A DNA stretch of 64,000 nt, taken from NCBI GenBank assembly GCA_021372435.1, contig JAJFUK010000086.1, positions 7,307-71,306 of the forward strand. The letters are read 5' to 3'. Source of the DNA: Actinomycetes bacterium. GTDB taxonomy: Bacteria > Actinomycetota > Thermoleophilia > RBG-16-64-13. A program made the position numbers and the translations under genes. Positions 37,701-55,699 of this stretch are shown in pieces (positions within the stretch are counted from its first letter, which is position 1; each line of letters starts with the position of its first letter). A model generated the notes under the pieces. It saw only the letters and a list, made by a program, of their open reading frames with translations, made no database searches and was not told the DNA's origin.

Positions 37701-39326
37701 GTGGACGCTGAGACACAGAAAGCGTTGCGGGCGCTGCCCTCTGTCGAGGAACTGCTCAGCCATCCCGCGGCGGCGCCGCTGGTGGAGCGCTTCTCGCGGG
37801 CTGAGACGGTGGAGGCCGTGCGGGCGGCTGTGGATGCAGCGCGGACCGGCATCCTGTCGGGGATGGAACCCGGGACCGGGGGAACACTGCCCACCCGCGG
37901 AGAAGCGCTCGTTGTCGGCGCCGGGACGTCGTCCATCAAGCCGAATCCGACTCCTGAGGCGCTCTTGTCTCAGGCGGCCGCCCTGCTCGACGCATGGTCG
38001 CAGCCCAGCCTGCGCCGGGTCGCCAATCTCAGCGGGGTGGTGATCCACACCAATCTGGGTAGATCGGCCCTGTCCGAGAGGGCGGTCGCCCGGGTGGCCG
38101 AGGTCGCCCGCGGGTACTGCAACCTCGAATACGATCTGGCGTCCGGGATCAGGGGATCCCGGGAGGCGCATGTGGAGTCCCTGCTCAAGCGGGTGACCGG
38201 CGCCGAGGCGGCCTTCGCCGTCAACAACAACGCGGGAGCGGTACTCCTTCTCCTGATGGCGCTGGCTTCGGGACGGGAGGTGCTGGTCTCGCGGGGCCAA
38301 TTGGTGGAGATCGGAGGTTCGTTCCGGCTGCCGGACATCATCCGAGCCGGCGGTGTCCGTCTGATGGAGGTAGGGACGACTAATCGCACCCGTCTCGAAG
38401 ACTACGAGACGGCCATCGGTCCCGACACTGCGCTTTTGCTGCGGGTGCACACTTCGAACTACCGGGTCGTGGGCTTCACCGAGGAGGTGAGCCTGGCCCA
38501 GTTGGTCGAATTGGGGCATCGGCGGGGTCTGCCGGTAGCCGACGACCTGGGTAGCGGGGCTCTCAGTGACCTGGATGTGTTCCGGGGGGAGCCCAGCGTG
38601 GCCGCCTCTCTGCGGGGGGGCGCCGACGTGGTCTGTTTCAGCGGGGACAAGCTGCTGGGAGGTCCGCAGGCGGGCATCCTGGTGGGCGGGGCCGAGGTGA
38701 TCGGGCTGCTGCGCAGGCATCCTGTGGCCCGGGCGCTTCGGCTCGACAAGATGACACTGGCGGCCCTAGAGGCGACCGTGGAAGCATACCGGGACCCTGA
38801 GAGGGCCCGCCGGGAGGTGCCGACTCTCCGGTTCCTCGGTCGCGCCACAGAAGAAACCGCCGCGTTGGCTGCAGCCCTTCAGGCGGCCATCGAGCGGCGC
38901 TGCGGCGATGGCTTTATCCTCGAGGTGGAGGAGTCGAGCGCTCGGGCCGGCGGTGGCTCCATGCCCCTGATGGAGTTGCCGTCGCACGCGGTCCGCATCC
39001 GCTTCCCGGTGTCGTCCGTCCCGGGCGGGACGTTCGGAGGCACGGCCCGCCCGACAAAAGCGGCCGGAGGTCCGGGAGGGTCGGCCGGTGAGGAGGGGTC
39101 GACCGTTCAGACGACCCCGACCATGGCCGCCCTCGAAGCTGAGTTGCGGCGCGCGCCACTACCCGTCGTTGCGCGGGTGGCACAGGACAGCCTGCACCTG
39201 GATGTGATAGCGCTGGCGGAGCGAGATGTGGAGACCGTCGCCGAGAGCGTGGCGTGGGCGATCGCCCGAGTGGTGGAGGCGGCCGGCGCGGAGTCGGGCT
39301 CGCCCGACTCCGCGCCGGAACAGTAA
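37701..39326 (+). CDS. selA: L-seryl-tRNA(Sec) selenium transferase
   Basis: LRALPSVEELL N-terminus, NLGRS, and FSGDKLLGGPQAGI (PLP lysine). Carries a ~45-aa Gly/Pro-rich insertion (VPGGTFGGTARPTKAAGGPGGSAGEEGSTVQ) and a C-terminal tail, making it longer than usual. Confidence 0.92.
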   Translation: MDAETQKALRALPSVEELLSHPAAAPLVERFSRAETVEAVRAAVDAARTGILSGMEPGTGGTLPTRGEALVVGAGTSSIKPNPTPEALLSQAAALLDAWSQPSLRRVANLSGVVIHTNLGRSALSERAVARVAEVARGYCNLEYDLASGIRGSREAHVESLLKRVTGAEAAFAVNNNAGAVLLLLMALASGREVLVSRGQLVEIGGSFRLPDIIRAGGVRLMEVGTTNRTRLEDYETAIGPDTALLLRVHTSNYRVVGFTEEVSLAQLVELGHRRGLPVADDLGSGALSDLDVFRGEPSVAASLRGGADVVCFSGDKLLGGPQAGILVGGAEVIGLLRRHPVARALRLDKMTLAALEATVEAYRDPERARREVPTLRFLGRATEETAALAAALQAAIERRCGDGFILEVEESSARAGGGSMPLMELPSHAVRIRFPVSSVPGGTFGGTARPTKAAGGPGGSAGEEGSTVQTTPTMAALEAELRRAPLPVVARVAQDSLHLDVIALAERDVETVAESVAWAIARVVEAAGAESGSPDSAPEQ

Positions 39327-39336
39327 CCGGGTCGCG

Positions 39337-41406
39337 ATGGTCGCGGAGCATCCTCTCACCCTCGGCACGGCGGGACACATCGATCACGGCAAGACCACTC
39401 TTGTCAAGGCCCTGACCGGACGCGACACCGACCGTCTTGAAGAAGAGAAGCGACGCGGCATCAGCATCGAGTTGGGCTTCGCCGAACTGGTGTTGCCGAG
39501 CGGGCGGCACATCAGCGTAGTGGACGTCCCCGGCCACGAGCGCTTCGTCAAGACCATGGTGGCCGGAGCCACGGGGATCGATCTGTTCCTGCTGGTGGTT
39601 GCCGCAGATGATGGCGTGATGCCCCAGACGCGCGAGCATCTGCGCATCATCGAACTCCTAGGGATCCCGGCGGGCGCGGTCGCGCTGACCAAGATCGATG
39701 TCGTCGACCAGGACTTCGTCGAATTGGCCGGTGCCGACGTCGAGGAGTTCTTGGCCACCACCAGGTATGTGGATGCGCCCATCGTGCCCGTGAGCGGGGT
39801 CACCGGGGAGGGGCTGCCTGCGCTGCTGTCCGTACTGGACGAACTGGGAGCCCGTGTGCCCCCTCGTGCGGCCTACCCTGCTACCCGCATGCCGGTGGAC
39901 CGGGTGTTCTCGCTGAGGGGGATCGGGACCGTGGTCACAGGGACCCTCTGGTCGGGTCGCATAGGCGCTGAAGATACGGTGGCCATTCTTCCTCCGCGCC
40001 ACGGCCGGGGCTCGAGTGCGCTTCGCGAGGTGCGGGTGCGCAGCGTCCAGGTGCACGACCGGGAAGTCGCCGAGGCGGTCGGGGGCCGGCGGGTCGCGCT
40101 GAACCTGACCGGAGTCGACCGGGACGAGGTAGTCCGGGGGCAGTGGGTCGTGAAAGACCCCGCCATCGAGCCTACGTATCTCGCCGATGTGCGTCTGACG
40201 CTCTTGACCGACGCCGGTGCTCCGCTCCCCCGGATCTCAAGAGTCCGGGTAGATCATGGGACCGCTGAGGTACTGGCCAAGGTGGTGCTGGCCGACCGGC
40301 AGATCCTCAACCCCGGGGGGTCGTGTTACGCTCAGGTCAGGTTCGATGAGCGGTGCCTGGTGTATCCGGGCGATCAGTTCATCGTCCGCTCGGTGACGCC
40401 CGTGACGACCATCGGCGGGGGCAGGGTGATCGATCCGGCGCCCCGCAAGCACAGCACCGGGCAGCATTGGCACGATCGGCTGGCCGTTCTGGAGGACGGG
40501 CGGCCGGAGGCGGTCGCCGCCCTCCTGCTCCAAGAATCGTTCCCGTCGGGCCCAGTCCGCGGGAGGTTTGAAACGAGTCCGTACCTGTGGCCGTTCACAC
40601 CGGAGGAGACCCGGGAGGCGGTCGTTGCCCTGCTGGCCGACGGCCGTGCCCTGGCGGTGGGAGCGGGCGTCGGGGGACCGGGGGGCGAGACTCGGTCTGG
40701 AGCAGTAGGCCCGAACGTCCGCCTGTTCCACGGTCCCTCTCTGCTCGCTCTTACCGACGCGGCGCTCACGGCGCTGCGTGCCAAGGCTGATGATGACCCG
40801 CTCGATCCCTATCTGACCCTGGGAGACCTACGGCGCGAGCTGGCCGGCGGGAGGGGATCCCCGGCTCTTGAAGTGGCTCTGGACCGCCTGCAGGATGCCG
40901 GCGAAGCCATCCGGTCCGAGCACGGGTACCGTTGGGCCGGAGCGGCAGTGGCCGCGCGGGGTGCACAGGCGGAGGTCGTTGAGCGTCTTCTGGAGCAGTT
41001 CAGCGCCGGCGCCGCCGGCCAGGGCCCGACCGGTAGAGGTGAAGTTCTCGGGAGCACGGCTGCCGTCGTGGCTTCAGGAGCCGCTGAGACGCCCAGTGTG
41101 ACCGCGGCGGCTGAAGCAGTAGGGCTCACCGTGGAGGCCGCTCAGAAGGTGATCGATGCATTGGTGCGACAAGGGCGGCTGGTCAGGGTGGGTGAAGACC
41201 TCTACTACCCGCCCGACCGGCTGGAGGCGCTCATCGGCCGCATCATCGTCGCGATGGAAGCTGCGGGGCAGGTCACGCTGGCCGAGGTCCGAGACCTCCT
41301 GGGGACATCGCGCCGATACTCGCAGGCCCTGCTGGAGCACATGGATTCCGAGGGCCTTACGCTGAGGGTGGGGGAGGCGCGGCGCCTGCGTCGCCGGCGC
41401 CGGTAG
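39337..41406 (+). CDS. selB: selenocysteine-specific translation elongation factor
   Basis: Start ATG 39337 lies 10 nt after the selA stop. Motifs: GTAGHIDHGKTTL, EEKRRGISIELGF, DVPGHERF, LTKID. The long C-terminal winged-helix region ends RRYSQALLEHMDSEGLTLRVG (SECIS-binding domain pattern). Confidence 0.92.
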   Translation: MVAEHPLTLGTAGHIDHGKTTLVKALTGRDTDRLEEEKRRGISIELGFAELVLPSGRHISVVDVPGHERFVKTMVAGATGIDLFLLVVAADDGVMPQTREHLRIIELLGIPAGAVALTKIDVVDQDFVELAGADVEEFLATTRYVDAPIVPVSGVTGEGLPALLSVLDELGARVPPRAAYPATRMPVDRVFSLRGIGTVVTGTLWSGRIGAEDTVAILPPRHGRGSSALREVRVRSVQVHDREVAEAVGGRRVALNLTGVDRDEVVRGQWVVKDPAIEPTYLADVRLTLLTDAGAPLPRISRVRVDHGTAEVLAKVVLADRQILNPGGSCYAQVRFDERCLVYPGDQFIVRSVTPVTTIGGGRVIDPAPRKHSTGQHWHDRLAVLEDGRPEAVAALLLQESFPSGPVRGRFETSPYLWPFTPEETREAVVALLADGRALAVGAGVGGPGGETRSGAVGPNVRLFHGPSLLALTDAALTALRAKADDDPLDPYLTLGDLRRELAGGRGSPALEVALDRLQDAGEAIRSEHGYRWAGAAVAARGAQAEVVERLLEQFSAGAAGQGPTGRGEVLGSTAAVVASGAAETPSVTAAAEAVGLTVEAAQKVIDALVRQGRLVRVGEDLYYPPDRLEALIGRIIVAMEAAGQVTLAEVRDLLGTSRRYSQALLEHMDSEGLTLRVGEARRLRRRRR

Positions 41407-41552: not shown

Positions 41553-41649
41553 GGAGCGGCTTTCGGTCTGGTGGCCGGCCCGGTCTTCAAAACCGGTGTT
41601 GGGGGGTAGGCCCCTCCAGGGTGGGTTCGATTCCCATGCCGCTCCGCCA
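41553..41649 (+). tRNA. selC: tRNA-Sec (anticodon UCA), CCA encoded
   Basis: GGAGCGGC...GCCGCTCC forms an 8-bp acceptor stem. The D-stem is 6 bp (UCGGUC/GGCCGG) with a 4-nt loop. The anticodon loop is CUUCAAA. A long variable arm (GGGGGG..CCCCUCC) and a 5-bp T-stem with UUCGAUU follow, then discriminator G plus CCA. This is the 8/5 bacterial tRNA-Sec geometry. Confidence 0.95.
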
Positions 41650-45865: not shown

Positions 45866-46874
45866 CACCCGCCTGCGCGCGCCGGTCAACGTCACGTGGG
45901 AGATCACCGGGGCCTGCAACCTGCGGTGCCGCCATTGCCTGTCGGCCGGGCTACGGACGCGCGGCCACGGTGAACTCGACCTTGCTCACTGTCGAGAACT
46001 CATCGACGAACTGGCCCGTATGCAGGTCTTTCAAGTGAACTTCGGGGGAGGGGAGCCGTTCTTGCGGGCCGACTTCCTCGACATCCTGCGCTGTGTCCAT
46101 GAACGAGGCATCACGGCCTGCGTCAGCACCAACGGGACGGTGCTGGACGACGCCCTAGTGGACGAGCTCCTGGCGATGGCGCCCGTCTATCTGCAGGTGA
46201 GTCTGGACGGGGCCCGAGCCGAGACCAATGACACCATCCGGGGAGATGGGACCTTCGAGCGCATCCTTGCCGGGATAGAGCTACTTTCCAGGCGGGGCTA
46301 TCCCGATCTCAGCCTCAATATGGTAGTGACCCGCCTCAACGTTTCCGAGATCGGTGAGTTCGACCGGCTTGCCCGCCACTACGGGGCCAAGACGCGATTA
46401 TCCCGGTTCCGTCCTTCGGGGAGGGCGTGTGGCGTCTGGGAGGACTATCGGCTGGACAGGGAGCAGCTTCTGCAGCTGTCGGCGTTCCTGGGAGACCACC
46501 CGGAGATCCTCACCGGTGACTCGTTCTTTGCTCTTACGCCCGACGGCCGGCGCGCGCTGGGCCTGAACATGTGTGGGGCGGCCAAGATGACCTGCGCCGT
46601 GGCGCCGGACGGCGGGGTGTATCCCTGCGCGTTCTTGTGTGCGCCTGAGTTTCTCGCCGGCAATGTGACCTCCGCGCCCCTTGGGCAGATCTTCGGCTCC
46701 TCACCGGTATTCGAGAGGTTCCGGACGCTCGAGGTAGAGATCTGTCGCGCCTGCGATCGTTTTTCCCTCTGTCACGGGGGATGTCCGGCGATAGCGTGTT
46801 TTCTTACCGAGTCGATGGATCTCCCCGACCCGGAGTGCCTGCGCGCGGTGGTGTCCGGGAAGGAGGTGGCGTAG
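45846..46874 (+). CDS. mftC: mycofactocin radical-SAM maturase
   Basis: TTG start. WEITGACNLRCRHC (CxxxCxxC), GGGEPF, and SPASM cysteines (CGAAKMTCAVAPDGGVYPCAFL, CRACDRFSLCHGGCPA). Confidence 0.92.
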   Translation: MPSSLTSTRLRAPVNVTWEITGACNLRCRHCLSAGLRTRGHGELDLAHCRELIDELARMQVFQVNFGGGEPFLRADFLDILRCVHERGITACVSTNGTVLDDALVDELLAMAPVYLQVSLDGARAETNDTIRGDGTFERILAGIELLSRRGYPDLSLNMVVTRLNVSEIGEFDRLARHYGAKTRLSRFRPSGRACGVWEDYRLDREQLLQLSAFLGDHPEILTGDSFFALTPDGRRALGLNMCGAAKMTCAVAPDGGVYPCAFLCAPEFLAGNVTSAPLGQIFGSSPVFERFRTLEVEICRACDRFSLCHGGCPAIACFLTESMDLPDPECLRAVVSGKEVA

Positions 46875-46877
46875 ACC

Positions 46878-48827
46878 ATGCAGTTCCCTCATCTGTTCAG
46901 CCCTCTGCGGATAGGCCGGGTGACCGTGCCGAACCGGATCTCGTTCTCGGCGCATCTGACGAATCTGTCGAAGGACGGACTTCCGACCGAGCGGCTCGTG
47001 AGCTACTTAGCCGCCCGCGCCCGGGGCGGCGCGGGCCTGATCATCACAGAGGAGCAGTCGGTGCACCCTACCGACCGTGCCTACGAGCACCTCATGGAAG
47101 CCTTCCGGCCGGAGATCATCCCGGGGTACAAGCGGCTTACGCGGGCGATCCATGCCTATGACACACGCATCTTCGCCCAGATCAACCACAACGGGCAGCA
47201 GTGCAGCGGGGTTTTGTCGCGGCTGCCGGTGTGGGCCCCGTCGGCCGTTCCCGACGTCATGTACCGGGAGACTCCCAAAGTCATGGAGCTCGAGGACATC
47301 CGGGAGGTCGTCGCTCATTTCGCGCTGGGGGCGATCCATGTCCGCGAAGGCGGATTCGACGGGGTGGAGCTCCAATTCGGCCACAGCTCCCTGGCCCGGC
47401 AGTTCATGTCGCCGCTTACGAACTTCCGCACCGATGAGTACGGAGGCGGGTTCGACAACCGCATGCGGTTCCCTCTGGAGGTGATCGCGGCGGTCCGTCA
47501 AGCGGTGGGTAGCGACTTCACCGTGGGCGTGCGCCTCTGCGCCGACGAGATGATCCCCGGAGGGCTGACGCTTGAAGACGCCAAGCAGATCGCGCAGCGG
47601 TTGGAGGCGACCGGGGAGCTCGACTACTTCAATCTCACTCTCGCGACGTTCTACAACCTCTACCTGGTCGGGGGGCCGATGCACCTGCCCTTGGGCTACG
47701 CCGTCCCCCTGGCCGCAGGCGTCAAGCAGGTGACGGCTCTGCCGGTGTTCACCGCCGGACGCATCAACGACCCGGCTTTGGCCGAGCGGATATTGGCTGA
47801 TGGACAGGCCGACATGATCGGTGTGGTGCGGGGCCAGATCGCCGACCCCGACTTCTCGAGCAAGGCCCGGGAGGGCCGCACCGACGAGATCCGCTACTGC
47901 ATCGCCTGTAATCAGAACTGCTACGGGCGCGTGGGCCTGAATCACACGATAGGATGCGTCCAGAACCCGGCGGTGGGTCACGAGGACACCGAGGGTGAGT
48001 GCCACCTCCGACCGACTCTGCGTAAGAAGCGGGTCATGGTGGTGGGTGGAGGCCCGGCCGGCATGTGGGCGGCCAAGATAGCCTCTCTCCGCGGGCACGA
48101 CGTCACGTTGTACGAAAAGTCCCAGGACCTGGGCGGCCAGGTCCTGCTGGCGGCGAAAGGAGCCGGACGCGACGAGTTTGGAGCGATAGCACGCAACGAG
48201 CGGAACCAGCTGGCCCGTCTTCGTGTGCCCGTGGAACTCGGCGTCGAGGTCACGCCGGAGTTCGTGCTCGACCGCGCCCCAGACGCGGTGATCGTGGCCA
48301 CCGGCTCGCGCCCCAAATCCTGTCCGGTGGCCGGAGCCGATGGGCCCAACGTCTTCAACGTATGGCAGGTGCTCGGCGGTGAGGCGCAACTCGGCGAGCG
48401 GGTGCTCCTCATCGACTACGACGGCCACCACCAGGCGACCGCCACAGCCGAGTTCATCGCCGACCTGGGGAAGACGGTGCACGTGGTCACCTCCGCGCTC
48501 TTCGTCGGTTCCGACCTGGGTCCATCGCAGGATCTCTACCTGTCACGCCAGAGGCTGCTCCAGAAAGGCGTCACCCTCACCGCCGATTTCGCGGTCATGG
48601 AGATCAAAGGCCTGGACGTCCATGGCTTCGACGTGTACTCGAACGTGTGGAGTGTCATCTCGGGCTACGACAGCATCGTGACCGCCATGGGCAATGATGC
48701 CTGCGACGGGCTCTATTTCGCGCTCAAAGGCAGGGTACCGGAGATTGTGCGGGTGGGAGACTGTGTCGCGCCCAGGAAGGTCGACATGGCCATCCTCGAA
48801 GGCTACAGGGCCGGGAAGCGCGTGTGA
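46878..48827 (+). CDS. FadH/OYE-family FMN + 4Fe-4S + FAD/NAD(P) oxidoreductase (2,4-dienoyl-CoA-reductase/TMADH architecture)
   Basis: 649 aa. OYE-like TIM barrel (RIGRVTVPNRI, INHNGQQ, GFDGVELQFGH), the CIACNQNCYGRV...C cluster motif, then VVGGGPAGMWAA Rossmann. A FadH/OYE family has been described as mycofactocin-associated (from memory, not checked). Confidence 0.88.
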   Translation: MQFPHLFSPLRIGRVTVPNRISFSAHLTNLSKDGLPTERLVSYLAARARGGAGLIITEEQSVHPTDRAYEHLMEAFRPEIIPGYKRLTRAIHAYDTRIFAQINHNGQQCSGVLSRLPVWAPSAVPDVMYRETPKVMELEDIREVVAHFALGAIHVREGGFDGVELQFGHSSLARQFMSPLTNFRTDEYGGGFDNRMRFPLEVIAAVRQAVGSDFTVGVRLCADEMIPGGLTLEDAKQIAQRLEATGELDYFNLTLATFYNLYLVGGPMHLPLGYAVPLAAGVKQVTALPVFTAGRINDPALAERILADGQADMIGVVRGQIADPDFSSKAREGRTDEIRYCIACNQNCYGRVGLNHTIGCVQNPAVGHEDTEGECHLRPTLRKKRVMVVGGGPAGMWAAKIASLRGHDVTLYEKSQDLGGQVLLAAKGAGRDEFGAIARNERNQLARLRVPVELGVEVTPEFVLDRAPDAVIVATGSRPKSCPVAGADGPNVFNVWQVLGGEAQLGERVLLIDYDGHHQATATAEFIADLGKTVHVVTSALFVGSDLGPSQDLYLSRQRLLQKGVTLTADFAVMEIKGLDVHGFDVYSNVWSVISGYDSIVTAMGNDACDGLYFALKGRVPEIVRVGDCVAPRKVDMAILEGYRAGKRV

Positions 48828-49909
48828 ACCGGGCCGCCGACAGGGAACAGAAGCGCGGCGTTGCCGCGGGCGGCGAGGCCGGCGACGGGGTGGAGACGGC
48901 GCCGGCCTCCGGAGGCCTCCTTGTACTTGTGGAACCGCCGGACGCCGAAGACGGGCCGGGCCGCTTTGTTCTTGCGGCCGAGGGGACTAGGTTGGCACGC
49001 TTACTCGAGGGGCCGCTCCACCTTGTCACGTGGCCCGAGGGCGCGGATCTCGATCTGGAGGCGCTCGCCACGGCGGCGGCCGGCCTGGCGGAGCGCACGC
49101 GGCCGGCGGCCGTGCTTTTGGCCGACACCGACACCGGCCGTCAGTTGGCGCCGATGATCGCGTGCCGGCTGGGTTCTGGGTGCGTGACTGCGTGCAGCGA
49201 CGTGCTGGTGCGGGATCCGGCTGCGCCGGCGGGCCGGGCAGGGCGGCCGGTCTGCATGACGCCCGGAAGGGAGAGGACCCTCGTGTTCGTAAAACCCGTC
49301 TACGGCGGCGGGCTGGAGCAGGAGATCGAACCTCTGCACGACACCATACCGGTCGTCGCCCTTGATCTTACCGGGATGGATGCCCCGGAGACCGGCGCGG
49401 CTGCCCTTCCGGTTGCTGGGGTCCTGCAGGTGGACGTTACCCCCACTCCTCGGGTTCCTCGGGTCCGGCGGCTCGAGATGATCCGACCAGACCCGCGTTC
49501 CGTGGACCTGGTCCACGCGCGACGGATCGTGACGGCGGGGGCGGGCAGCGCCGGGGATGCGCTTCTGGCCGCCGTGGGTGAACTTGCCGAACTTCTCGAG
49601 GGCTCGGTGGGGGCTACTCGACCGGTGGTGGACGATGGCCGCCTTCCCAAAGAACGGCTGATCGGACAGACGGGCCGTACCGTGGCCCCGGACCTCTATG
49701 TCGCTCTCGGCCTGTCCGGATCGCCTCACCACCTCGCGGGAGTGAAACGGGCGGAGCGCATCCTGGCCATCAACAAGGACGGAAGCGCTCCCATCTTCCA
49801 CTTCTCCGATGTGGGCTACGTAGCCGATCTGGAGATGGTGCTTCCTGCTTTGGTGAAGAAGATCAAGGAGTGGCGGGATGCCTCCGGCGGCCCCGACGAC
49901 TCTGGGTAG
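48824..49909 (+). CDS. fixB: electron transfer flavoprotein alpha subunit (FixB-like)
   Basis: GTGA overlap with the upstream stop. The C-terminal FAD domain reads GATRPVVDDGRLPKERLIGQTGRTVAPDLYVALGLSGSPHHLAG...ILAINKD. Confidence 0.88.
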   Translation: MNRAADREQKRGVAAGGEAGDGVETAPASGGLLVLVEPPDAEDGPGRFVLAAEGTRLARLLEGPLHLVTWPEGADLDLEALATAAAGLAERTRPAAVLLADTDTGRQLAPMIACRLGSGCVTACSDVLVRDPAAPAGRAGRPVCMTPGRERTLVFVKPVYGGGLEQEIEPLHDTIPVVALDLTGMDAPETGAAALPVAGVLQVDVTPTPRVPRVRRLEMIRPDPRSVDLVHARRIVTAGAGSAGDALLAAVGELAELLEGSVGATRPVVDDGRLPKERLIGQTGRTVAPDLYVALGLSGSPHHLAGVKRAERILAINKDGSAPIFHFSDVGYVADLEMVLPALVKKIKEWRDASGGPDDSG

Positions 49910-51242
49910 CGACCGCGGCGCCTTCGACGCCATCGTGGTAGGGGCGGGTCCGGCGGGCACGAGCGCGGCGCTTGCGCTTGCCCAGAAGGGGTTCAGGGTC
50001 CTCCTGCTGGAACGGGGCGACTACCCGGGGGCCAAGAACATGTTCGGCGGGATGATGGCTTACTGTCCTGCGCCGGAAGAGCTGGTTCCCGGCTTCTGGG
50101 AGCGGGCCCCGTGGGAGCGGGCGGTGACCAAGCGTGTACTGTCGGTCGTGGGCGGGGGCTCCAGCACGTCCCTGGTCTTCCAAGCCGCCTCTGACTCCGG
50201 CCGGCCGTCGGCGGGCGGTGGTTCCACCTCCGATCAAACGCTGACCGGGTTCACGCTCTTTCGTCCCCAGTTCGACCGCTGGTACGCGGAGCAGGCCGTC
50301 GCCCAGGGAGTGACCCTGCTCACCGGCTGTCGCGTGGAGGGACTCCTGCTGCATGACGGAGCGGTCTGGGGTGTGCGTATCGCCGGTGCTGAAGACGTAG
50401 TCGAAGCCCCTGTGGTCGTGGCCTGCGACGGGACGCTCTCGTTGGTGGCGCAGCAGGCCGGTCTGCACACAGGAGTGAGGGCAGAGCATGTGGCCCTAGG
50501 GGTTCGGGCCCTCTACGCGCTCAGCGAAGAAGGGATCGACGAACGGTTCGCACTCGACGGCCGGGAGGGCGCCACCTACGAATTCCTTGGCTGCACCGAG
50601 GGGATCCGGGGCGGGAGCTTCATGTATACGCAGACCGAGACGGTCTCCGTAGGTATGGTGCTCCACCTTGACTCGCTCAAAGCGCGCGGGGTGCCTCCCT
50701 ATGGACTCTTGGAGCGCTTCGTTGCATCCCCGCCGGCGGCCTCACTGCTCAGGGCAGCGCGTTTGGTCGAGTACTCGGCCCACCTCCTCCCGGAGGCGGG
50801 CACGCGCATGGTGCCTCGTCTGTCCGCAGCCGGACTGCTTGTCGCCGGAGACGCGGCCGGTCTCTGCTATACGAACGGCCTCATCCAGGAAGGGATGAAC
50901 CTGGCCATGACGTCCGGTCTGCTGGCCGGACGCGTGGCCGCCGAAGCCCTAGCGGAGGGCGATCTCAGCGCGCGTCGTCTGGCCCGGTACGCGGGTGAAT
51001 TGGAGCGGAGCTTTGTCCTCAAGGACATGAAGACCTTCGACCGGGCCGTCGACTTCATGCGCGAAGACCGGCTGTTCACCGTGTATCCGCGGGTCATCAG
51101 CGCGCTGATGGAAGACCTCTACCGTTCCGACGGCACGCCGAAGGAAAAGATAGGGCCGCTTGCCCGCCGCGCTCTCAAGGGCGAGTTGCCGGTGCGTGCC
51201 TTGATCGCCGATCTCTTCCGAGGAGGGAGGGGCTACCTGTGA
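49878..51242 (+). CDS. fixC: FAD-dependent ETF:quinone-type oxidoreductase (FixC-like)
   Basis: FDAIVVGAGPAGTSAALALAQKG, GAKNMFGG, and C-terminal AGDAAG. Confidence 0.88.
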   Translation: MPPAAPTTLGSDRGAFDAIVVGAGPAGTSAALALAQKGFRVLLLERGDYPGAKNMFGGMMAYCPAPEELVPGFWERAPWERAVTKRVLSVVGGGSSTSLVFQAASDSGRPSAGGGSTSDQTLTGFTLFRPQFDRWYAEQAVAQGVTLLTGCRVEGLLLHDGAVWGVRIAGAEDVVEAPVVVACDGTLSLVAQQAGLHTGVRAEHVALGVRALYALSEEGIDERFALDGREGATYEFLGCTEGIRGGSFMYTQTETVSVGMVLHLDSLKARGVPPYGLLERFVASPPAASLLRAARLVEYSAHLLPEAGTRMVPRLSAAGLLVAGDAAGLCYTNGLIQEGMNLAMTSGLLAGRVAAEALAEGDLSARRLARYAGELERSFVLKDMKTFDRAVDFMREDRLFTVYPRVISALMEDLYRSDGTPKEKIGPLARRALKGELPVRALIADLFRGGRGYL

Positions 51243-51514
51243 TAGTGGACGACCTGTTCGATCTGGTGAGCTACCGGATCCATCCCGAGGCGCACATCGT
51301 CGTCGATGCGGAGGGGTGTAAGGACTGCGCGCATCGGGCCTGTACCTTCTCCTGCCCGGCCCGCTGCTATACGTGGAGCGAGGAGAGAGCCCGGGTGGAG
51401 TTCGCCTATGAGGCCTGTCTCGAATGCGGTACCTGCCTGCTCGTGTGCGACCGGAAGGCCGTCGACTGGCACTATCCTCCCGGGGGATACGGTGTGCGCT
51501 TCCGGCTCACATAG
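51239..51514 (+). CDS. fixX: ferredoxin-like protein FixX
   Basis: 91 aa. Motifs: CKDCAHRACTFSCPARCY, CLECGTCLLVC, and a trailing HYPPGGYGV. Confidence 0.85.
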   Translation: MIVDDLFDLVSYRIHPEAHIVVDAEGCKDCAHRACTFSCPARCYTWSEERARVEFAYEACLECGTCLLVCDRKAVDWHYPPGGYGVRFRLT

Positions 51515-51523
51515 GAGCGCCCG

Positions 51524-52534
51524 ATGAGGATCCTGGTCCTTCTGGGAATCGGGGCAGACGTCCGCGTCTCTGTGGAGCGCGATCCACGCAGCGGGCGCGT
51601 ACGCGCCGAACGGCTCGTGCGCGAGATCGATCCGGACTGCGGTCGCGCACTGGATCTGGCTCTGCGCCTGAAGTGCGCCCACCCGGGAACGGAGCTGACG
51701 GCCCTGCACTTTGGGCCCCCGAGTGGGGAGTCCCGGCTTCGGCACGCTCTGGCCCAGGGTGTCGACCGGGCGGTGCGCATATGGGATGAAGAAGTCACCG
51801 GGGCGCGGGCGGCCGGCAAGGCAGTCATCCTGGCCGCGGCCGCCGAAGCGGCCGGCTTTGACCTGATCTTAGCCGGAGCGACCGGTGTCGTCGAAGCCGG
51901 CGGTCAGCTCGGCGTGTTGGTGGCGGCGCACCTGGGAGTCCCCTGCGTGACCCAGGTGGTCGATATGGCCGCTGCAGAGGGCCCGGATGCCTCGGCCGGG
52001 CGGCAAAGCCTGGAGATGATGCGCGGCCTGGATCGGGGCTTCCGCGAGCGGGTGCTGGTCTCGTTGCCGGTCGTCGCGACGGTGTCGTGTCTCGGGGCAG
52101 TCCCGGTGACCACGGCGAAGACGCTCGACACGACCCACGCGGCGGTGACCGCCCGTGCGCTTCTGGCGGTCCAAGATCAGGAGATCGCCACGTGGGACCT
52201 GGCCGATCTAGGCGTGCCGCTCGATGGGGTGCGACGTGCCGATGGGTCTCTCGTCTATGGGCGGCCGCGTCCCCGGCGTCCCCGGCTGCGCCCCCTTGCT
52301 GCTCCCGACCCGGCGCTTCCCGCGTTCGACCGTATCCTCAAGCTGATCGAGGGGTCCGTCAAACGGCGGGAAGGCCGCGTCGTCCGGCGCTCCGCGGACG
52401 CGATCGTCGACGAGATATTCAGGCTTCTCCATGATGAAGGCTGGCTGGATCACCTTCGTCCCGGCGCGCAGCGTGTCCGTCTTGCGGCCCCAGGCGACGA
52501 CCGGGAGACTCCTGAGCCCGGCGACGGCCGATGA
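51524..52534 (+). CDS. fixA: electron transfer flavoprotein beta subunit (FixA-like) with C-terminal extension
   Basis: MRILVLLG..., IDPDCGRALDLALRLK, LRHALAQGVDRAVRIWD, DLILAGATGV..GQLGVLVAAHLGVP. About 75 extra C-terminal residues include a Pro/Arg linker. Confidence 0.8.
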   Translation: MRILVLLGIGADVRVSVERDPRSGRVRAERLVREIDPDCGRALDLALRLKCAHPGTELTALHFGPPSGESRLRHALAQGVDRAVRIWDEEVTGARAAGKAVILAAAAEAAGFDLILAGATGVVEAGGQLGVLVAAHLGVPCVTQVVDMAAAEGPDASAGRQSLEMMRGLDRGFRERVLVSLPVVATVSCLGAVPVTTAKTLDTTHAAVTARALLAVQDQEIATWDLADLGVPLDGVRRADGSLVYGRPRPRRPRLRPLAAPDPALPAFDRILKLIEGSVKRREGRVVRRSADAIVDEIFRLLHDEGWLDHLRPGAQRVRLAAPGDDRETPEPGDGR

Positions 52535-53991
52535 TCCCTGTAGCCTATTGGCTGCGCGAATCGGTACGGATCGAGCCCGCCGGCGCCGGTCGCCGGCGCG
52601 TAGTGTCCGAAGCGCCCCTCACAGTCTTGACGATCAATCATGCCGCAGCGGAGCTCCTGGAAGTGACGCGCCGAGGCGCCTCGGTCGCCGACCTGGCCGC
52701 TGCGTTCGACGCGGACCAGGAACGGATCTTTCTGCTGTGCGAGCGCTTCCGTCGCCGCGGGATTCTCCAGGTCCGCCGGGCGCCGGTCGACGCCGGCTTT
52801 TCACCCACGGTGACCGTGATCGTTCCCACACAGGACCGCGTGGACGATCTGGACGATTGTCTCCAAGCTCTCAGCCGCCTGGACCATCCCCGCGACCGGC
52901 TCGAGGTGATCGTGGTGGACGACGGCTCGACGGATCCCTCGGCAGTCGCCGACGTCGTTGCTCGTCACGACGCCCGCCTTCTGACCAACGAGTGCAATCA
53001 CGGAGCTCCGTACTCCCGCAACCGGGCGGCCCGGGTGGCGGCGGGCGAGATACTGGCCTTCATCGACAGCGACTGCGTGCCCGGCCGTGGGTGGCTTGGG
53101 GAACTCATCCCCTACTTCTGCTGGGACAAGGTCGGAGCGGTGGGTGGCCGCACCGTCAACTATTACACCGGGTCGCGACTCGACCGGTACGAGGAGGTCT
53201 CGTCTCCGCTGGATATGGGCAAGGACCTGATCATCCAAGCGCGCGGGCAGAGCACCTTCTACGTGCCCACGTGCAACCTGCTCGTCCGCCGTTCCACGTA
53301 CGAGGATCTGGGGGGCCTACGAGAGGATCTGCTCGTGGGCGAAGATGTGGACTTCTGCTGGCGTCTGCGGGCGAACGGCCTCTATCTTGTGTATGCTCCG
53401 GAGGGTCTGGTGCGGCACAAGCACCGGGACCGGCTGGGCGCGATGCTACGGCGGCGGGCAGAGTACGGCACTTCCGAGGCGACCCTCTACTCGCTCCATC
53501 GCGACAAGCGCAAACGCTTTCCGGTATCCCCCGCTCCGGCGGCCACTGTGGGCCTTTTCTCTACGGCACTGCTTACACGTAAGGTGCAGTTGCTCCTGCC
53601 CTGCCTGCTCCCTCCGTTGGCGGACTGCGTCCGCCGCGGCCTGAAACTTCGCAGGGAGGCGATCGGAGCCCCGGCTCGAGCGGTTTGTGTTTCGGTGGCG
53701 CGCGGTCATCTTTCCATGGTCTACTTCGTCTTCTTTCACCTCGTTCGATACTACTTGGCGCCTCTGGCTGCCGCCGGCCTGTTTGTTCCTGGGATCCGGC
53801 TACTGGCCGCCACTGCCGTCCTTTACTCGGGAGGGGTCGATTACGTCACTCGAAGACCTCGGATGACCTACCCTGTGTACCTCGCGTACTACGTGGCAGA
53901 GCACGCCGCCTATCAGGCGGGCGTCATGGCGGGCTGCGTGCGGTCAAGGACCTTTCGCTGCTACCTCCTTGGGCGCAGCGGGACGAGATAG
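52531..53991 (+). CDS. mftF: mycofactocin-system glycosyltransferase candidate (GT2 with N-terminal extra domain and C-terminal TM region)
   Basis: 486 aa. GT2 core (VTVIVPTQDR, VIVVDDGSTD, FIDSDCVP, VGEDVDFCWR) preceded by a ~95-aa domain and followed by hydrophobic helices, the size and layout of MftF. Last gene of the mft operon. The assignment is context-based. Confidence 0.72.
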   Translation: MIPVAYWLRESVRIEPAGAGRRRVVSEAPLTVLTINHAAAELLEVTRRGASVADLAAAFDADQERIFLLCERFRRRGILQVRRAPVDAGFSPTVTVIVPTQDRVDDLDDCLQALSRLDHPRDRLEVIVVDDGSTDPSAVADVVARHDARLLTNECNHGAPYSRNRAARVAAGEILAFIDSDCVPGRGWLGELIPYFCWDKVGAVGGRTVNYYTGSRLDRYEEVSSPLDMGKDLIIQARGQSTFYVPTCNLLVRRSTYEDLGGLREDLLVGEDVDFCWRLRANGLYLVYAPEGLVRHKHRDRLGAMLRRRAEYGTSEATLYSLHRDKRKRFPVSPAPAATVGLFSTALLTRKVQLLLPCLLPPLADCVRRGLKLRREAIGAPARAVCVSVARGHLSMVYFVFFHLVRYYLAPLAAAGLFVPGIRLLAATAVLYSGGVDYVTRRPRMTYPVYLAYYVAEHAAYQAGVMAGCVRSRTFRCYLLGRSGTR

Positions 53992-54171
53992 ACCGCCCCG
54001 GCCGGCCGGAAACGAGTTCTCGGCCTGCACATGAAGGGCGCCGCCCGTATTATGCCGTCGCGCGTGGTGCAGTCTGTGGGCCGGAGGCGTGCGCGATCGT
54101 GACGTACGTCGTATCGGTGATAAGGGCGATGACGCTCGGAGTCTGGCGCCCACCGGTCGAGCCGCCTGCCT

Positions 54172-54639
54172 CTATTGCTCGAGCGAGGCTATCAGGTCCA
54201 GTATTTCGCCGTCAGGCGGTATGTCGCTCATGTCATGCCCGTAGTGGACGAAGCGGGCGATGCCGGACTTGTCCACCAGCACCTGCGCCGGCATCCGGCC
54301 GAGCTTGAACAGCTTGATCTCCTGTCCGTAGAGCTTGAGGACGCTGTGTTTGGGATCGGGAAGACCGACGAAGGGCAGATCGTTGTTCTGCCAATAGGAA
54401 GCAAAGGCTTCAGCGTCCTCGGGACCAACGACCACGATCATCGTGCCGGATTCCTGGAACTTCTCGTAGTCTTGGCGCAACTGCGCCATATGCGCCCGGC
54501 AGAACGGTCACATGAAGCCGCGATTGAAGACCAGCAGCACATTCGACCGACCATGCTGGTCGGACAGTCTGAACGTCGCTCCGGTGTAGTCGGTCAACTC
54601 GAAATCGGGAGCCGGAGCCGTGAGATTGACTTTGGGCAC
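54172..54639 (-). CDS. peroxiredoxin-like (AhpC/TSA-redoxin) selenoprotein, Sec44 encoded by in-frame TGA
   Basis: The ORF track splits this gene into 54508..54921 and 54172..54489, which are in the same frame. GTG start 54639 lies 5 nt after AGGAGGAG. The product reads VPKVNLTAPAPDFELTDYTGATFRLSDQHGRSNVLLVFNRGFM-U(TGA 54510-54508)-PFCRAHMAQLRQDYEKF.... The TGA sits exactly at the first Cys of the family's CPFC/CxxC redox motif. selA/selB/selC lie in the same window. Confidence 0.8.
54473..54488 (-). promoter_or_regulatory. candidate bacterial SECIS hairpin
   Basis: mRNA UGGCGC-AGUU-GCGCCA: a perfect 6-bp stem with a 4-nt loop, starting 19 nt after the UGA. This is within the spacing range used by SelB-dependent SECIS elements. 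Confidence 0.45.
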
Positions 54640-54992
54640 TGTTCTCCTCCTGGTTCTTGGGGCTGATGAGCCGGAAAAGCATCTCCGGCCGAGATCAGCA
54701 GTCCTTATAGTCCTCGACGGGCATCCCGCCGGCGGGCCGCACCGCACAGGTCCAAGGGTGGCTCCCTGTGCTCGACCTGCTCCTGCCGCCGCCGGCATGC
54801 CTCCTGCCGTCTTGGTGAAGATCATTTCCCCAATACCGTAGCTACGTAACAAGTGACACGTGGCGTACGTGGTGTATGGCCCTACGAAGTCACGACGCCC
54901 TCTGGACCCGAGGCGTCCCAAGGACTAGTCTAGAAGTGCGGGAGTCCGGCGCCGACCGTCGGCGGGCCGGGAGCGAAGTAAGGAGGTCGCAG

Positions 54993-55214
54993 ATGTCCGG
55001 TGGCGTGTACAAGGTGATCGAGCTGGTTGGAACAAGCACCGAGTCCTGGGAGGCGGCTGCAAAGTCGGCCATCGAAGCGGCGACGGCGACCCTGCAGGAC
55101 ATCCGCGTAGCCGAGGTCGTCAAGATGGACGTGCGGCTCGATCAGAACAAGATCGTCGAATACCGCACGCGGCTTACGGTCTCGTTCAAGTATCACAAGG
55201 AGCTGAGCGACTAG
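54993..55214 (+). CDS. dodecin-family flavin-binding protein
   Basis: ATG 54993 follows AAGGAGG. MSGGVYKVIELVGTSTESWEAAAKSAIEAATATLQDIRVAEVVKMDVRLD...YRTRLTVSFKY matches the dodecin pattern. Confidence 0.85.
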   Translation: MSGGVYKVIELVGTSTESWEAAAKSAIEAATATLQDIRVAEVVKMDVRLDQNKIVEYRTRLTVSFKYHKELSD

Positions 55215-55264: not shown

Positions 55265-55699
55265 TCAGGCCGCAGTGACCGGACGGACCTTAGCACCGTC
55301 GTCGCGTTCCTCTGCCGTGGTCGTGTGCGCGCCGTGTTCGTGCGCCGCGGCCGGTCGCAGCGAGAAAGTCGACGGTTTCTGTGCCTGCTGCTTCCACTCG
55401 TCGAGCACCGCTTGATTCGGGAGAGGGAGTGGCTGCATCCCGACGATCTGACAGGCGCGTTCATAGATGCAGTCTGACTCGTGCGTGCACTCGCCCGCCG
55501 AGATCTCGAACGGGGCGTGACAGTAGATGCAGCACAAGGTATGAAGATCCCACCATGGCGTGCGGACCAAACGCTCAAGCACCCAACGCATGCGCCGCCA
55601 GTCATAGCAGACCGTCTCCACATCCGCCGAAAGCCTGTCGACTTCGCGCGTGCTCGGAACACGATTCTCGAACACCGTCGCCTCTCCTTGGGAATCCAT
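55265..55699 (-). CDS. hypothetical Cys/His/Trp-rich protein
   Basis: 144 aa, LHTLCCIYCHAPFEISAGECTHESDCIYERAC. Amino-acid composition is unlike the Arg/Pro-rich shadow ORFs. I recognise no family. Confidence 0.45.
   Translation of the reverse strand: MDSQGEATVFENRVPSTREVDRLSADVETVCYDWRRMRWVLERLVRTPWWDLHTLCCIYCHAPFEISAGECTHESDCIYERACQIVGMQPLPLPNQAVLDEWKQQAQKPSTFSLRPAAAHEHGAHTTTAEERDDGAKVRPVTAA

What the first reader, a model, noticed from the sequence alone, without database searches (positions are those of the whole stretch)
54172..54639. Peroxiredoxin-like gene split by an in-frame TGA at the redox Cys position: probable selenoprotein (U-P-F-C)
Seen: two ORF-track entries (54508..54921 and 54172..54489, minus strand) are in the same frame and separated only by TGA 54510-54508. 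With the GTG start at 54639 (AGGAGGAG 5 nt upstream) they form one 155-codon redoxin fold. The TGA falls exactly where homologues carry the first Cys of the W/F-C-P-F-C motif (here ...FNRGFM-U-PFCRAHM...). A perfect hairpin, UGGCGC-AGUU-GCGCCA, begins 19 nt downstream. selA, selB and tRNA-Sec lie 13-17 kb upstream.

Established: Prx-like and thiol:disulfide-oxidoreductase-like proteins are recurrent bacterial selenoprotein families, and UxxC replaces CxxC in them. Standard gene callers would annotate this gene as a pseudogene or as two fragments.
Basis: partly seen in the sequence, partly recalled or inferred. Interest (0 to 1): 0.75.

Follow-up and report, generated by a model that had tools for sequence, protein, structure and literature searches.

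The report
Peroxiredoxin-like selenoprotein gene with SECIS
This is a real but ordinary selenoprotein gene: a small peroxiredoxin-like redox enzyme in which an in-frame TGA most likely encodes selenocysteine in a U-P-F-C active site, a known kind of bacterial selenoprotein that gene callers routinely truncate or mistranslate.

Summary
On the minus strand, 54639..54172 is one 155-codon AhpC/TSA-fold reading frame interrupted only by TGA 54510-54508 (...FNRGFM-U-PFCRAHM...).

- **Conservation of the TGA.** In 158 related loci from at least five phyla, the aligned codon is TGA. The protein is conserved on both sides of it. True Cys forms (TGC/TGT) are rare.
- **SECIS hairpin.** The hairpin UGGCGC-AGUU-GCGCCA starts 19 nt after the UGA and meets all four criteria of the published bacterial SECIS model. 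Synonymous variation collapses only at its codons (GCG 80/81, CAG 82/82, UUG 82/82, CGY 81/81). A few lineages carry compensatory pair changes.
- **Sec machinery.** selA, selB and tRNA-Sec lie at 37.7-41.6 kb. selD was not found in the window.
- **Active site.** Sec occupies the Thr position and Cys47 the peroxidatic-Cys position of the peroxiredoxin PxxxTxxC motif. The catalytic Arg is kept.

This matches the "Prx-like thiol:disulfide oxidoreductase" selenoprotein kind (PF00578, UxxC) described since 2004. I rate it a new, unannotated member of a known kind, of modest interest.

Two side results: 64 of the 120 top database homologues show a "W" at this site, and the one checked at DNA level has TGA (code-4 reading). 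The SECIS sequence is almost invariant across phyla.

The parts
54172..54639 (-). Complete selenoprotein coding sequence: 155 codons plus a TAG stop. It has an AhpC/TSA (peroxiredoxin-like) fold with a U44-P-F-C47 active site.
   Evidence: Translation. Pfam PF00578 at 79.2 bits against a cut-off of 26. Full-length homologues at 51-76% identity.
54637..54651 (-). Ribosome-binding site AGGAGGAG (54651-54644), a 4-nt spacer, and the GTG start codon (54639-54637).
   Evidence: Read directly. The start is in register with the MPKV.../VPKV... N-termini of homologues.
54508..54510 (-). In-frame TGA, read here as the selenocysteine codon (residue 44).
   Evidence: TGA at the aligned codon in 82/82 loci and in 76 further metagenome loci. 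TGC/TGT in the rare Cys forms.
54473..54488 (-). Bacterial SECIS core hairpin: 5' arm UGGCGC, loop AGUU, 3' arm GCGCCA. The loop starts 25 nt after the UGA. The hairpin is encoded by the M-A-Q-L-R-Q codons.
   Evidence: -10.8 kcal/mol. Consensus structure across loci. Synonymous variation collapses at these codons. 98.5% of cells are paired, with compensatory changes at 2 pairs.
54491..54501 (-). Possible 3-bp mini-helix between the UGA and the SECIS: UGC (the Cys47 codon) pairing with G-CA (the wobble G of codon 50 plus the first two bases of the His51 codon). Its role is uncertain.
   Evidence: RNAalifold predicts it. UA 144/144, GC 144/144, CG 129/144. The Cys47 codon is TGC in 80/82 loci.
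41553..41649 (+). tRNA-Sec with anticodon UCA.
   Evidence: ARAGORN. Rfam RF01852 at 77.9 bits against a gathering score of 47.
37701..39326 (+). selA, L-seryl-tRNA(Sec) selenium transferase.
   Evidence: TIGR00474 at 519.3 bits against a cut-off of 267.9.
39226..41406 (+). selB, the Sec-specific elongation factor. The coordinates are those of the ORF. The true start is probably near 39331.
   Evidence: TIGR00475 at 330.8 bits against a cut-off of 242.25. ORF listed.

Best explanation
The locus is one intact gene for a cytoplasmic, peroxiredoxin-fold thiol/selenol oxidoreductase.

**Decoding (inferred).** UGA at codon 44 is recoded as selenocysteine. SelB carrying Sec-tRNA(Sec) would bind the 16-nt hairpin UGGCGC-AGUU-GCGCCA, which lies inside the coding sequence 19 nt downstream, and deliver Sec to the ribosome. 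This follows from the fit to the bacterial SECIS model, from the conservation pattern, and from the selA-selB-tRNA-Sec cluster 13-17 kb away.

**Chemistry (inferred).** The product carries U44-P-F-C47 at the N-terminus of the first active-site helix. Sec occupies the position of the conserved Thr of the peroxiredoxin PxxxTxxC motif. Cys47 occupies the peroxidatic-Cys position, and the catalytic Arg (R115) is retained. The likely mechanism has three steps:
1. The exposed selenolate attacks a peroxide or a disulfide substrate.
2. The oxidised selenium is resolved by Cys47 to an intramolecular selenenylsulfide.
3. That bond is re-reduced by a thioredoxin-type reductant.

**What is shown and what is not.**
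- Shown: the reading frame, the Sec/Cys column, the conserved TGA, the nucleotide-level constraint on the hairpin, the fold class, and the presence of selA, selB and tRNA-Sec.
- Inferred: SelB binding, actual Sec insertion, the substrate, and the reductant.
For: **Frame and motif.**

**Family.** PF00578 (3e-22) and Redoxin (7e-16).

**Conserved TGA.** TGA is the aligned codon in 82/82 loci from Actinomycetota, Chloroflexota, Smithella/Deltaproteobacteria, Leptospirales and Acidobacteriota. It is also TGA in 76 of 83 metagenome loci, even though that scan was seeded with Cys forms.

**Genuine Cys forms.** TGC/TGT at the same codon.

**Translation on both sides of the TGA.** Residues upstream of it (A, P, D, F, L, G, V, N, R columns) are 89-100% conserved as amino acids, with synonymous entropy 0.66-1.0 of the maximum. 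So the N-terminal part is translated in the same frame.

**Nucleotide-level constraint on the hairpin.**
- Entropy collapses only at Ala GCG (80/81), Gln CAG (82/82), Leu UUG (82/82) and Arg CGC/CGU (63/18, with no CGR or AGR).
- Hairpin cells are paired in 98.5% of 144 distinct sequences.
- Compensatory changes occur: G-C to C-G in 4 sequences and G-C to U-G in 1.
- 0 of 500 shuffles reach the observed pairing.
- Two of five independent Cys forms carry hairpin-breaking synonymous changes (CGA, GCA) that are never seen in the Sec forms.

**Fit to the bacterial SECIS model (PMC13188914, Fig. 2A).** The loop is 4 nt, the stem 6 bp, G is at loop position 2 followed by U, the UGA-to-loop spacing is 25 nt, and the energy is -10.8 kcal/mol.

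**Sec machinery.**

**TGA is an ordinary stop elsewhere in the window.** The mycofactocin OYE2 gene matches its profile at positions 1-644 of 645 and ends in TGA at 48827.

**Active-site register.** Taken from the alignment to M. tuberculosis AhpE.

**Structure.** An AlphaFold2 model of the Cys form P0017 has pLDDT 91.7, and residue 44 caps helix 45-56. The best structural matches are Bcp1 3drn (TM 0.83), AhpE and ResA.
Against: - No experimental evidence of Sec insertion exists.
- selD was not found among the window ORFs tested. The window is only part of a roughly 108-kb contig.
- Covariation in the hairpin is thin. Most pairs never vary, and only 5 sequences carry double changes. The argument rests mainly on synonymous-site conservation.
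- Some TGA-containing relatives have a weakened hairpin, for example L119-L121 at -3.6 kcal/mol and L050 with one mismatch.
- The substrate and the physiological reductant are unknown. No conserved operon partner was found.
Confidence: 0.93

Rival explanations
1. The gene is a pseudogene. A nonsense mutation (for example TGG or TGC to TGA) has inactivated a peroxiredoxin-like gene.
For: A single in-frame stop splits the gene. Isolated relatives do look damaged: L168 has CGA at the site and an out-of-frame N-terminus, and L167 has TTA.
Against: The same TGA is present in 158 loci across at least five phyla. Both halves remain under strong amino-acid conservation while synonymous sites are saturated. 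A conserved RNA hairpin follows the TGA. The Sec machinery is encoded nearby.
Confidence: 0.01
2. TGA is read as tryptophan (genetic code 4) or glycine (code 25) in this organism, so the residue is W or G, as many database entries show.
For: 64 of the 120 best database homologues carry W at this column.
Against: The one W-form whose DNA could be read (P0020, locus L001) has TGA and does not translate to the database protein under code 11. Its W is therefore a gene-caller choice made on a short contig. In the window, well-supported genes end at TGA with full-length profile matches (OYE2 ending at 48827 and ADH ending at 45397). tRNA-Sec(UCA), selA and selB are present. Host lineages such as Anaerolineae and Actinomycetota use code 11 (established knowledge).
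Confidence: 0.01
3. There are two separate products. Termination at the TGA gives a 43-aa peptide, and independent initiation at ATG 54489 gives a 105-aa C-terminal protein. The hairpin would then serve as a translational coupling or attenuation signal rather than a SECIS.
For: Gene callers annotate exactly this 105-111 aa product (P0009; GAP15703.1). The ATG of the M-A-Q-L-R motif lies within the hairpin.
Against: The C-terminal fragment lacks the U/C-x-x-C active site and the first four beta strands of the fold. No Shine-Dalgarno sequence precedes ATG 54489. Cys forms encode a single continuous protein. The hairpin satisfies the SECIS geometry (PMC13188914).
Confidence: 0.03
4. The hairpin is an incidental consequence of the conserved peptide M-A-Q-L-R-Q in GC-rich DNA, and Sec insertion relies on some other signal.
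For: The surrounding 42-66 nt do not fold better than shuffled sequence (z = -0.6 to -0.7). Most stem pairs never vary.
Against: The peptide alone cannot explain UUG in 82/82 loci when other conserved Leu columns use UUG in only 8-23%. It also cannot explain GCG in 80/81 when other Ala columns use all four codons, or CGY only for Arg. Compensatory changes occur at two pairs. Synonymous hairpin-breaking changes are seen only in Cys forms.
Confidence: 0.03

Closest known systems
Prx-like thiol:disulfide oxidoreductase selenoprotein. First described by Kryukov & Gladyshev (2004). It appears as 'Prx-like protein' in the Sargasso Sea study (PMC1088965), as 'Prx-like 1' (pfam00578, UxxC) in GOS (PMC2398784), and in the 2026 review table as PF00578, UxxC/UxxU, WP_010940744.1 (PMC13188914).
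   Same: Both are distant members of the AhpC/TSA family. Both carry a thioredoxin-like UxxC motif where peroxiredoxins have TxxC, have an in-frame UGA followed by a bacterial SECIS, and have Cys-containing homologues. The known family occurs in Syntrophus, Geobacter and Desulfotalea (PMC1794560). The present clade includes the related Smithella.
   Different: Orthology to the reference sequence could not be tested. The FNRGFxUPFC motif was not found in the stored part of the GOS selenoprotein sequence supplement. This clade is mainly from Anaerolineae and Actinomycetota of soils, sediments and digesters. It is almost exclusively Sec-containing.
Sec-containing peroxiredoxin (PrxU, Eubacterium acidaminophilum type; TxxU)
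   Same: Same fold and Pfam family. Sec lies in the active-site helix turn, and the SECIS is inside the coding region.
   Different: In PrxU, Sec replaces the peroxidatic Cys (TxxU). Here Sec replaces the Thr, and the peroxidatic-position Cys is kept (UxxC). The NCBIfam peroxi_PrxU model scores only 20.4 bits against a cut-off of 270.
SelL / SelL-related redox proteins (NCBIfam NF040769; Prx-like2)
   Same: This is the best NCBIfam hit (78.6 bits over residues 9-105). It is a redox motif at the same position in a Prx-like fold.
   Different: The score is below the curated cut-off of 120, so the protein is not a member by NCBI's criterion. SelL carries UxxU (PMC2398784). The Pfam AhpC-TSA_2 model gives only E = 0.0016.
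BCP/PrxQ and AhpE 1-Cys peroxiredoxins (PDB 3drn, 1xxu, 5c04)
   Same: These are the closest solved structures by sequence (E = 4e-8) and by fold (TM 0.81-0.83). The peroxidatic-position Cys and the catalytic Arg are conserved.
   Different: The Pro and Thr of PxxxTxxC are replaced by Arg40 and Sec44.
ResA/TlpA CxxC thiol-disulfide oxidoreductases (PDB 1st9, 2f9s)
   Same: A C/U-x-x-C motif at the helix N-terminus. Structural similarity is TM 0.73-0.82. NCBIfam ResA gives 47 bits.
   Different: ResA scores far below its cut-off of 170. There is no membrane anchor or signal sequence. The Prx-type Arg is retained.

Membership tests
Bacterial selenoprotein gene (Sec-UGA plus bSECIS) | The in-frame UGA aligns with Cys in homologues (a Sec/Cys pair). 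| tested here: met
   The aligned codon is TGC or TGT in L082, L083/84, L085, L086 and L117.
Bacterial selenoprotein gene (Sec-UGA plus bSECIS) | The UGA is conserved in orthologues, with coding conservation on both sides. | tested here: met
   158 loci have TGA. Upstream and downstream columns are conserved as protein while synonymous sites vary freely.
Bacterial selenoprotein gene (Sec-UGA plus bSECIS) | The bSECIS model of PMC13188914 Fig. 2A: apical loop of 3-9 nt, upper stem of 4-16 bp, G in the first two loop positions, 16-37 nt between the UGA and the loop, and MFE of -7.5 kcal/mol or lower. | tested here: met
   The loop is AGUU (4 nt, G at position 2 followed by U). The stem is 6 bp. 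The spacing is 25 nt. The energy is -10.8 kcal/mol. bSECISearch itself was not run.
Bacterial selenoprotein gene (Sec-UGA plus bSECIS) | The genome encodes tRNA-Sec, SelA and SelB. | tested here: met
   All three score above their curated cut-offs.
Bacterial selenoprotein gene (Sec-UGA plus bSECIS) | The genome encodes SelD (selenophosphate synthetase). | tested here: inconclusive
   SelD was not found by motif regex or by NCBIfam scans of 20 window ORFs. The rest of the genome is not available.
Bacterial selenoprotein gene (Sec-UGA plus bSECIS) | Selenium is incorporated into the polypeptide. | not testable with these tools
   This needs 75Se labelling or mass spectrometry.
Prx-like thiol:disulfide oxidoreductase selenoprotein (PF00578, UxxC) | Membership of Pfam AhpC-TSA (PF00578). 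| tested here: met
   79.2 bits against a gathering score of 26.
Prx-like thiol:disulfide oxidoreductase selenoprotein (PF00578, UxxC) | A UxxC motif in place of the TxxC of peroxiredoxins. | tested here: met
   In the alignment to AhpE, the Sec position (entered as Cys in the query) aligns with Thr and Cys47 with the peroxidatic Cys. The residue caps the active-site helix in the model.
Prx-like thiol:disulfide oxidoreductase selenoprotein (PF00578, UxxC) | Orthology to the reference member WP_010940744.1 (Geobacter sulfurreducens). | not tested
   The reference sequence could not be obtained with the tools. Related Smithella loci belong to the present clade, and Syntrophus is listed with the known family (PMC1794560). 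This is suggestive only.
Canonical peroxiredoxin (PxxxTxxC) | The conserved Pro and Thr of PxxxTxxC. | tested here: not met
   Arg40 stands at the Pro position and Sec44 at the Thr position.
Canonical peroxiredoxin (PxxxTxxC) | The peroxidatic Cys and the catalytic Arg. | tested here: met
   Cys47 is invariant and Arg115 nearly invariant.
NCBIfam NF040769 SelL-related redox protein | A score at or above the curated cut-off of 120 bits. | tested here: not met
   78.6 bits.
ResA/TlpA thiol-disulfide oxidoreductase (NF002854) | A score at or above the curated cut-off of 170 bits. | tested here: not met
   47.1 bits. There is fold similarity only.

The most novel reading that the evidence does not exclude
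The FNR[GTA]Fx-U-P[FY]C clade may be a distinct, so far uncatalogued orthologous group of Prx-like selenoproteins. No NCBIfam equivalog matches it, and the best model is below its cut-off. In this clade Sec, not Cys, is the ancestral and overwhelmingly dominant state (about 95% of loci). Its 16-nt SECIS, AUGGCGCAGUUGCGY, is nearly invariant across Actinomycetota, Chloroflexota, Deltaproteobacteria, Leptospirales and Acidobacteriota. That would make it a compact, apparently 'universal' bacterial SECIS accepted by very divergent SelB proteins. It would also be an example of an RNA signal freezing a peptide motif (MAQLR). A second conserved 3-bp helix lies between the UGA and the SECIS.
Probability: 0.35. 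Interest if true: 0.45.

Novelty: new member of a known kind. Interest (0 to 1): 0.3.

Why it matters
**Annotation.** The gene is systematically mis-annotated in public data. It appears either as a 105-111 aa "peroxiredoxin" fragment or, in 64 of the 120 best database homologues, as a full-length protein with W at the active site; the one W-form checked at DNA level has TGA. Recognising it restores a redox enzyme to the proteomes of many uncultured Actinomycetota and Anaerolineae. It also flags selenium use in these soil and sediment lineages.

**Selenoprotein biology.** The family offers an unusually clean and short SECIS (6 bp plus an AGUU loop) that is conserved across phyla. That could serve as a compact test element for SelB recognition. 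The family is also one of the few in which Sec strongly dominates over Cys.

None of this changes current understanding of Sec decoding.

Tried and rejected
- **Structure prediction with the window protein.** The Cys-form homologue P0017 (63% identical) was modelled instead.
- **Cluster look-up with 'U'.** The listing of cluster members does not accept sequences containing U. The look-up was repeated with fragments.
- **DNA for P0001.** It was not retrievable.
- **GOS supplements.** A search for FNRGF, HMAQLR and LFKLGRMPAQ found nothing. The stored file is truncated, so this is weak negative evidence.
- **Conserved operon partner.** Neighbour ORFs in 81 loci were clustered. The largest neighbour families occur in at most 17 loci, so there is no conserved partner. 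Synteny with the window (dodecin, the hypothetical protein at 55265, MftF) is limited to L002, L008, L015 and L055.
- **Other TGA-split genes in the window.** Two crude GC3 and Cys-proximity filters were applied. Apart from this gene, only candidates that appear antisense to real genes were found. The stricter filter missed the true gene, so this screen is insensitive.
- **Promoter and terminator scan of 53900-55000.** Nothing useful was found.
- **Rfam at gathering threshold.** There was no hit at the hairpin.
- **Single-sequence folding statistics.** For the 42-66 nt region these are not significant. They were rejected as evidence in favour of the comparative analysis.
Full report
**1. Observation**

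The minus strand between 54639 and 54172 is a single reading frame of 155 codons plus a TAG stop. It is interrupted only by TGA at 54510-54508.

The start is GTG at 54639-54637, preceded by AGGAGGAG at 54651-54644. The peptide around the stop is LLVFNRGFM-*-PFCRAHMAQLRQDY.

The hairpin has a 5' arm UGGCGC (54488-54483), a loop AGUU (54482-54479) and a 3' arm GCGCCA (54478-54473). It begins 19 nt after the UGA and appears in the minimum-free-energy fold. Alone it is -10.8 kcal/mol (z = -3.3). The surrounding 42-66 nt do not fold better than shuffles in this 65% GC DNA (z about -0.6 to -0.7). A single-sequence argument is therefore weak, and the case rests on comparison.

**2. What the protein is**

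With Cys in place of the stop, the product matches Pfam AhpC-TSA (PF00578, 79.2 bits, cut-off 26) and Redoxin. No NCBIfam model reaches its cut-off. The best is NF040769, SelL-related redox protein, at 78.6 bits against 120. ResA, PrxQ and PrxU score far lower.

The nearest solved structures by sequence are M. tuberculosis AhpE and Sulfolobus Bcp1 (E about 5e-8). In the AhpE alignment:
- the Sec position falls on the Thr of the peroxiredoxin TxxC;
- Cys47 falls on the peroxidatic Cys;
- Arg115 falls on the catalytic Arg;
- the Pro of PxxxT is replaced by an invariant Arg40.

An AlphaFold2 model of a 63%-identical Cys-form homologue (P0017) is confident (pLDDT 91.7). It places residue 44 as the N-cap of helix 45-56. 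Foldseek finds BCP-type peroxiredoxins (TM 0.83), AhpE and, slightly lower, the CxxC protein ResA. The protein is thus a peroxiredoxin-fold enzyme with a thioredoxin-like U-x-x-C centre.

**3. Is the TGA a Sec codon?**

A protein search gave two classes of relatives. The first class is full-length proteins of about 155 aa at 51-68% identity. The second class is closer relatives, at 77-87% identity, that are all fragments of about 105-110 aa starting at MAQLRQD.

Most of the full-length proteins carry W at the stop column (64 of the 120 top hits). For P0020, the one such protein whose contig could be read, the DNA has TGA and does not translate to the database protein under code 11. Its W is therefore a gene-caller artefact (code 4), not a real Trp; the other W-forms were not checked at DNA level.

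A scan of one genome per species returned 80 loci. They come from about 20 Actinomycetota and about 55 Chloroflexota (mostly Anaerolineae, including the cultured Longilinea arvoryzae), plus three Smithella/Deltaproteobacteria, one Leptospirales and one Acidobacteriota. All 80, as well as the window and L001, have TGA at the aligned codon within the motif FNR[GTA]Fx-U-P[FY]C.

A metagenome scan was deliberately seeded with Cys forms. It still returned TGA in 76 of 83 motif-bearing loci. Genuine Cys forms exist but are rare: L082=L104 (TGC), L083=L084 (TGC), L085 (TGT), L086 (TGT) and L117 (TGC).

Upstream of the TGA, amino acids are 89-100% conserved while synonymous sites are nearly saturated. 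The N-terminal 43 codons are therefore translated in frame with the rest. This excludes a pseudogene and an independent 105-aa product.

TGA is a normal stop elsewhere in the window. The mycofactocin OYE2 gene matches its profile end to end and stops at TGA 48827. This excludes a code-4 or code-25 organism.

**4. The SECIS**

Across the 82 loci of the first (genome) set, synonymous-codon entropy at conserved residues is 0.59-1.0 of the maximum everywhere except in two places.
- Within the hairpin: Ala GCG 80/81, Gln CAG 82/82, Leu UUG 82/82 and Arg CGC 63 / CGU 18. There are no CGR or AGR codons for Arg.
- At the Cys47 codon: TGC 80/82.

Other conserved Leu columns use UUG in only about 8-23% of sequences. 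RNAalifold recovers the 6-bp hairpin as the consensus structure.

On the 144 distinct 45-nt sequences of all 158 Sec-form loci (genome and metagenome sets):
- 98.5% of hairpin cells are paired.
- One-sided changes keep pairing: G-C to G-U in 29 sequences and U-A to U-G in 22.
- Two pairs show compensatory double changes: G-C to C-G in L088-L090 and L165, and G-C to U-G in L166.
- No shuffle out of 500 reaches the observed pairing or the number of double-change cells.

Among the five independent Cys forms, two carry synonymous changes that break the stem (CGA in L085 and GCA in L117). Such changes never occur in the 158 Sec forms. The other three Cys forms keep an apparently fossil hairpin.

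The element meets every criterion of the published bacterial SECIS model (PMC13188914, Fig. 2A). The loop is 4 nt with G at position 2 followed by U. The stem is 6 bp. There are 25 nt between the UGA and the loop. The energy is at or below -7.5 kcal/mol.

A second, weaker feature is a possible 3-bp helix between the Cys47 codon UGC and G-CA. The G is the wobble base of a variable codon, and the C-G pair is kept in 129 of 144 sequences. Its role is unknown.

**5. Sec machinery**

| Component | Coordinates | Evidence |
|---|---|---|
| tRNA-Sec (UCA) | 41553-41649 | |
| selA | 37701-39326 | TIGR00474, 519 bits |
| selB | about 39.3-41.4 kb | TIGR00475, 331 bits |

selD was not found by motif search or among the 20 ORFs scanned against NCBIfam. 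The window is part of a contig of about 108 kb, so this is inconclusive.

**6. Mechanism**

The inferred decoding mechanism is that SelB carrying Sec-tRNA(Sec) binds the hairpin as the ribosome reaches UGA44 and inserts Sec.

The inferred chemistry follows from the active-site geometry. The exposed selenolate at the helix N-terminus attacks a peroxide or a disulfide. Cys47 resolves the oxidised selenium to a selenenylsulfide. A thioredoxin-type system then reduces it.

Retention of the Prx Arg and of the peroxidatic-position Cys leaves peroxidase chemistry possible. The UxxC centre and the similarity to ResA leave thiol-disulfide exchange possible. I cannot discriminate between the two.

There is no signal peptide-like N-terminus. 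No conserved operon partner was found.

**7. Comparison with the known**

[quoted passage not shown] It is listed as 'Prx-like 1' (pfam00578, UxxC) in GOS (PMC2398784). The 2026 review lists it as 'Prx-like thiol:disulfide oxidoreductase' (PF00578, UxxC/UxxU) (PMC13188914). It was reported in Syntrophus, Geobacter and Desulfotalea (PMC1794560).

The window gene has all the testable defining features of that kind. Orthology to the reference sequence could not be tested. The specific FNRGFxUPFC motif was absent from the stored part of the marine GOS sequence supplement. The protein is not a canonical peroxiredoxin, because the Pro and Thr are missing. By NCBI's cut-offs it is not a SelL-related or ResA family member either.

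**8. Verdict**

This is an unannotated member of a known kind of bacterial selenoprotein. Interest is modest (0.3).

The points of some wider value are:
- the systematic database artefacts, namely truncated 'peroxiredoxin' entries such as Longilinea GAP15703.1 and W at the Sec site;
- the strong dominance of Sec over Cys in this clade;
- the near-invariance of a very compact SECIS across phyla.

Noticed in passing
window 42286-53991: A mycofactocin system lies next to the selenoprotein gene. It comprises a mycofactocin-type SDR (42286-43047, minus strand), an NDMA-dependent-type alcohol dehydrogenase (44288-45397), the MftC radical SAM maturase (45843-46874), OYE-family oxidoreductase 2 (46875-48827), ETF alpha and beta (48698-49909 and 51515-52534), a FixC-like flavoprotein (49857-51242) and the MftF glycosyltransferase (52531-53991). 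The selenoprotein gene is convergent with mftF. The adjacency is shared only with the closest relative, L015.
   Followed up: partly
database homologues P0001-P0120; L001:192-194: 64 of the 120 best database homologues show Trp at the Sec position. The DNA of the one that could be read (P0020, L001) has TGA, consistent with short metagenomic contigs being translated with genetic code 4. A further 40 are C-terminal fragments of about 105 aa. Longilinea arvoryzae GAP15703.1 ('peroxiredoxin', 111 aa) is one such truncation.
   Followed up: yes
window 54491-54501 (-); alignment A4 columns 10-12 and 18-20: The Cys47 codon is almost always UGC. The wobble base of the variable codon 50 is G in about 90% of sequences. 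Together they could form a 3-bp helix (UGC/GCA) between the UGA and the SECIS. Its function is unknown.
   Followed up: partly
L082/L104, L083/L084, L085, L086, L117: The rare Cys forms look like recent Sec-to-Cys conversions. Three keep an intact 'fossil' hairpin. Two carry synonymous changes that break it (CGA in L085, GCA in L117). L083/L084 have close TGA-containing relatives (L088-L090) with the same variant hairpin, UCGCGC-GCCU-GCGCGA.
   Followed up: partly
L167:430-432 and L168:331-333: Two relatives have single-base variants of the Sec codon. L167 has TTA (Leu) with an intact hairpin. L168 has CGA (Arg) with an out-of-frame N-terminus. These are probably sequencing errors or decaying copies.
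   Followed up: partly
window 37701-41649: selA, selB and tRNA-Sec form one tight cluster. The selB ORF overlaps the end of selA, and the tRNA lies about 150 nt downstream. No selD was found in the window, and no other convincing TGA-split gene was found in the 64 kb.
   Followed up: partly
window 54996-55214 (+) and 55265-55699 (-): A dodecin-family gene lies divergently upstream of the selenoprotein gene. The profile match covers 54996-55214, inside the longer ORF 54876-55214, so the true start is uncertain. Next to it is a 144-aa protein with no family match. Both are conserved next to the selenoprotein gene only in the closest actinobacterial relatives (L002, L008, L015, L055).
   Followed up: partly
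L082:442-1404: A reverse-transcriptase (RVT_1) gene sits immediately upstream of the Cys-form homologue on a JGI metagenome contig.
   Followed up: no
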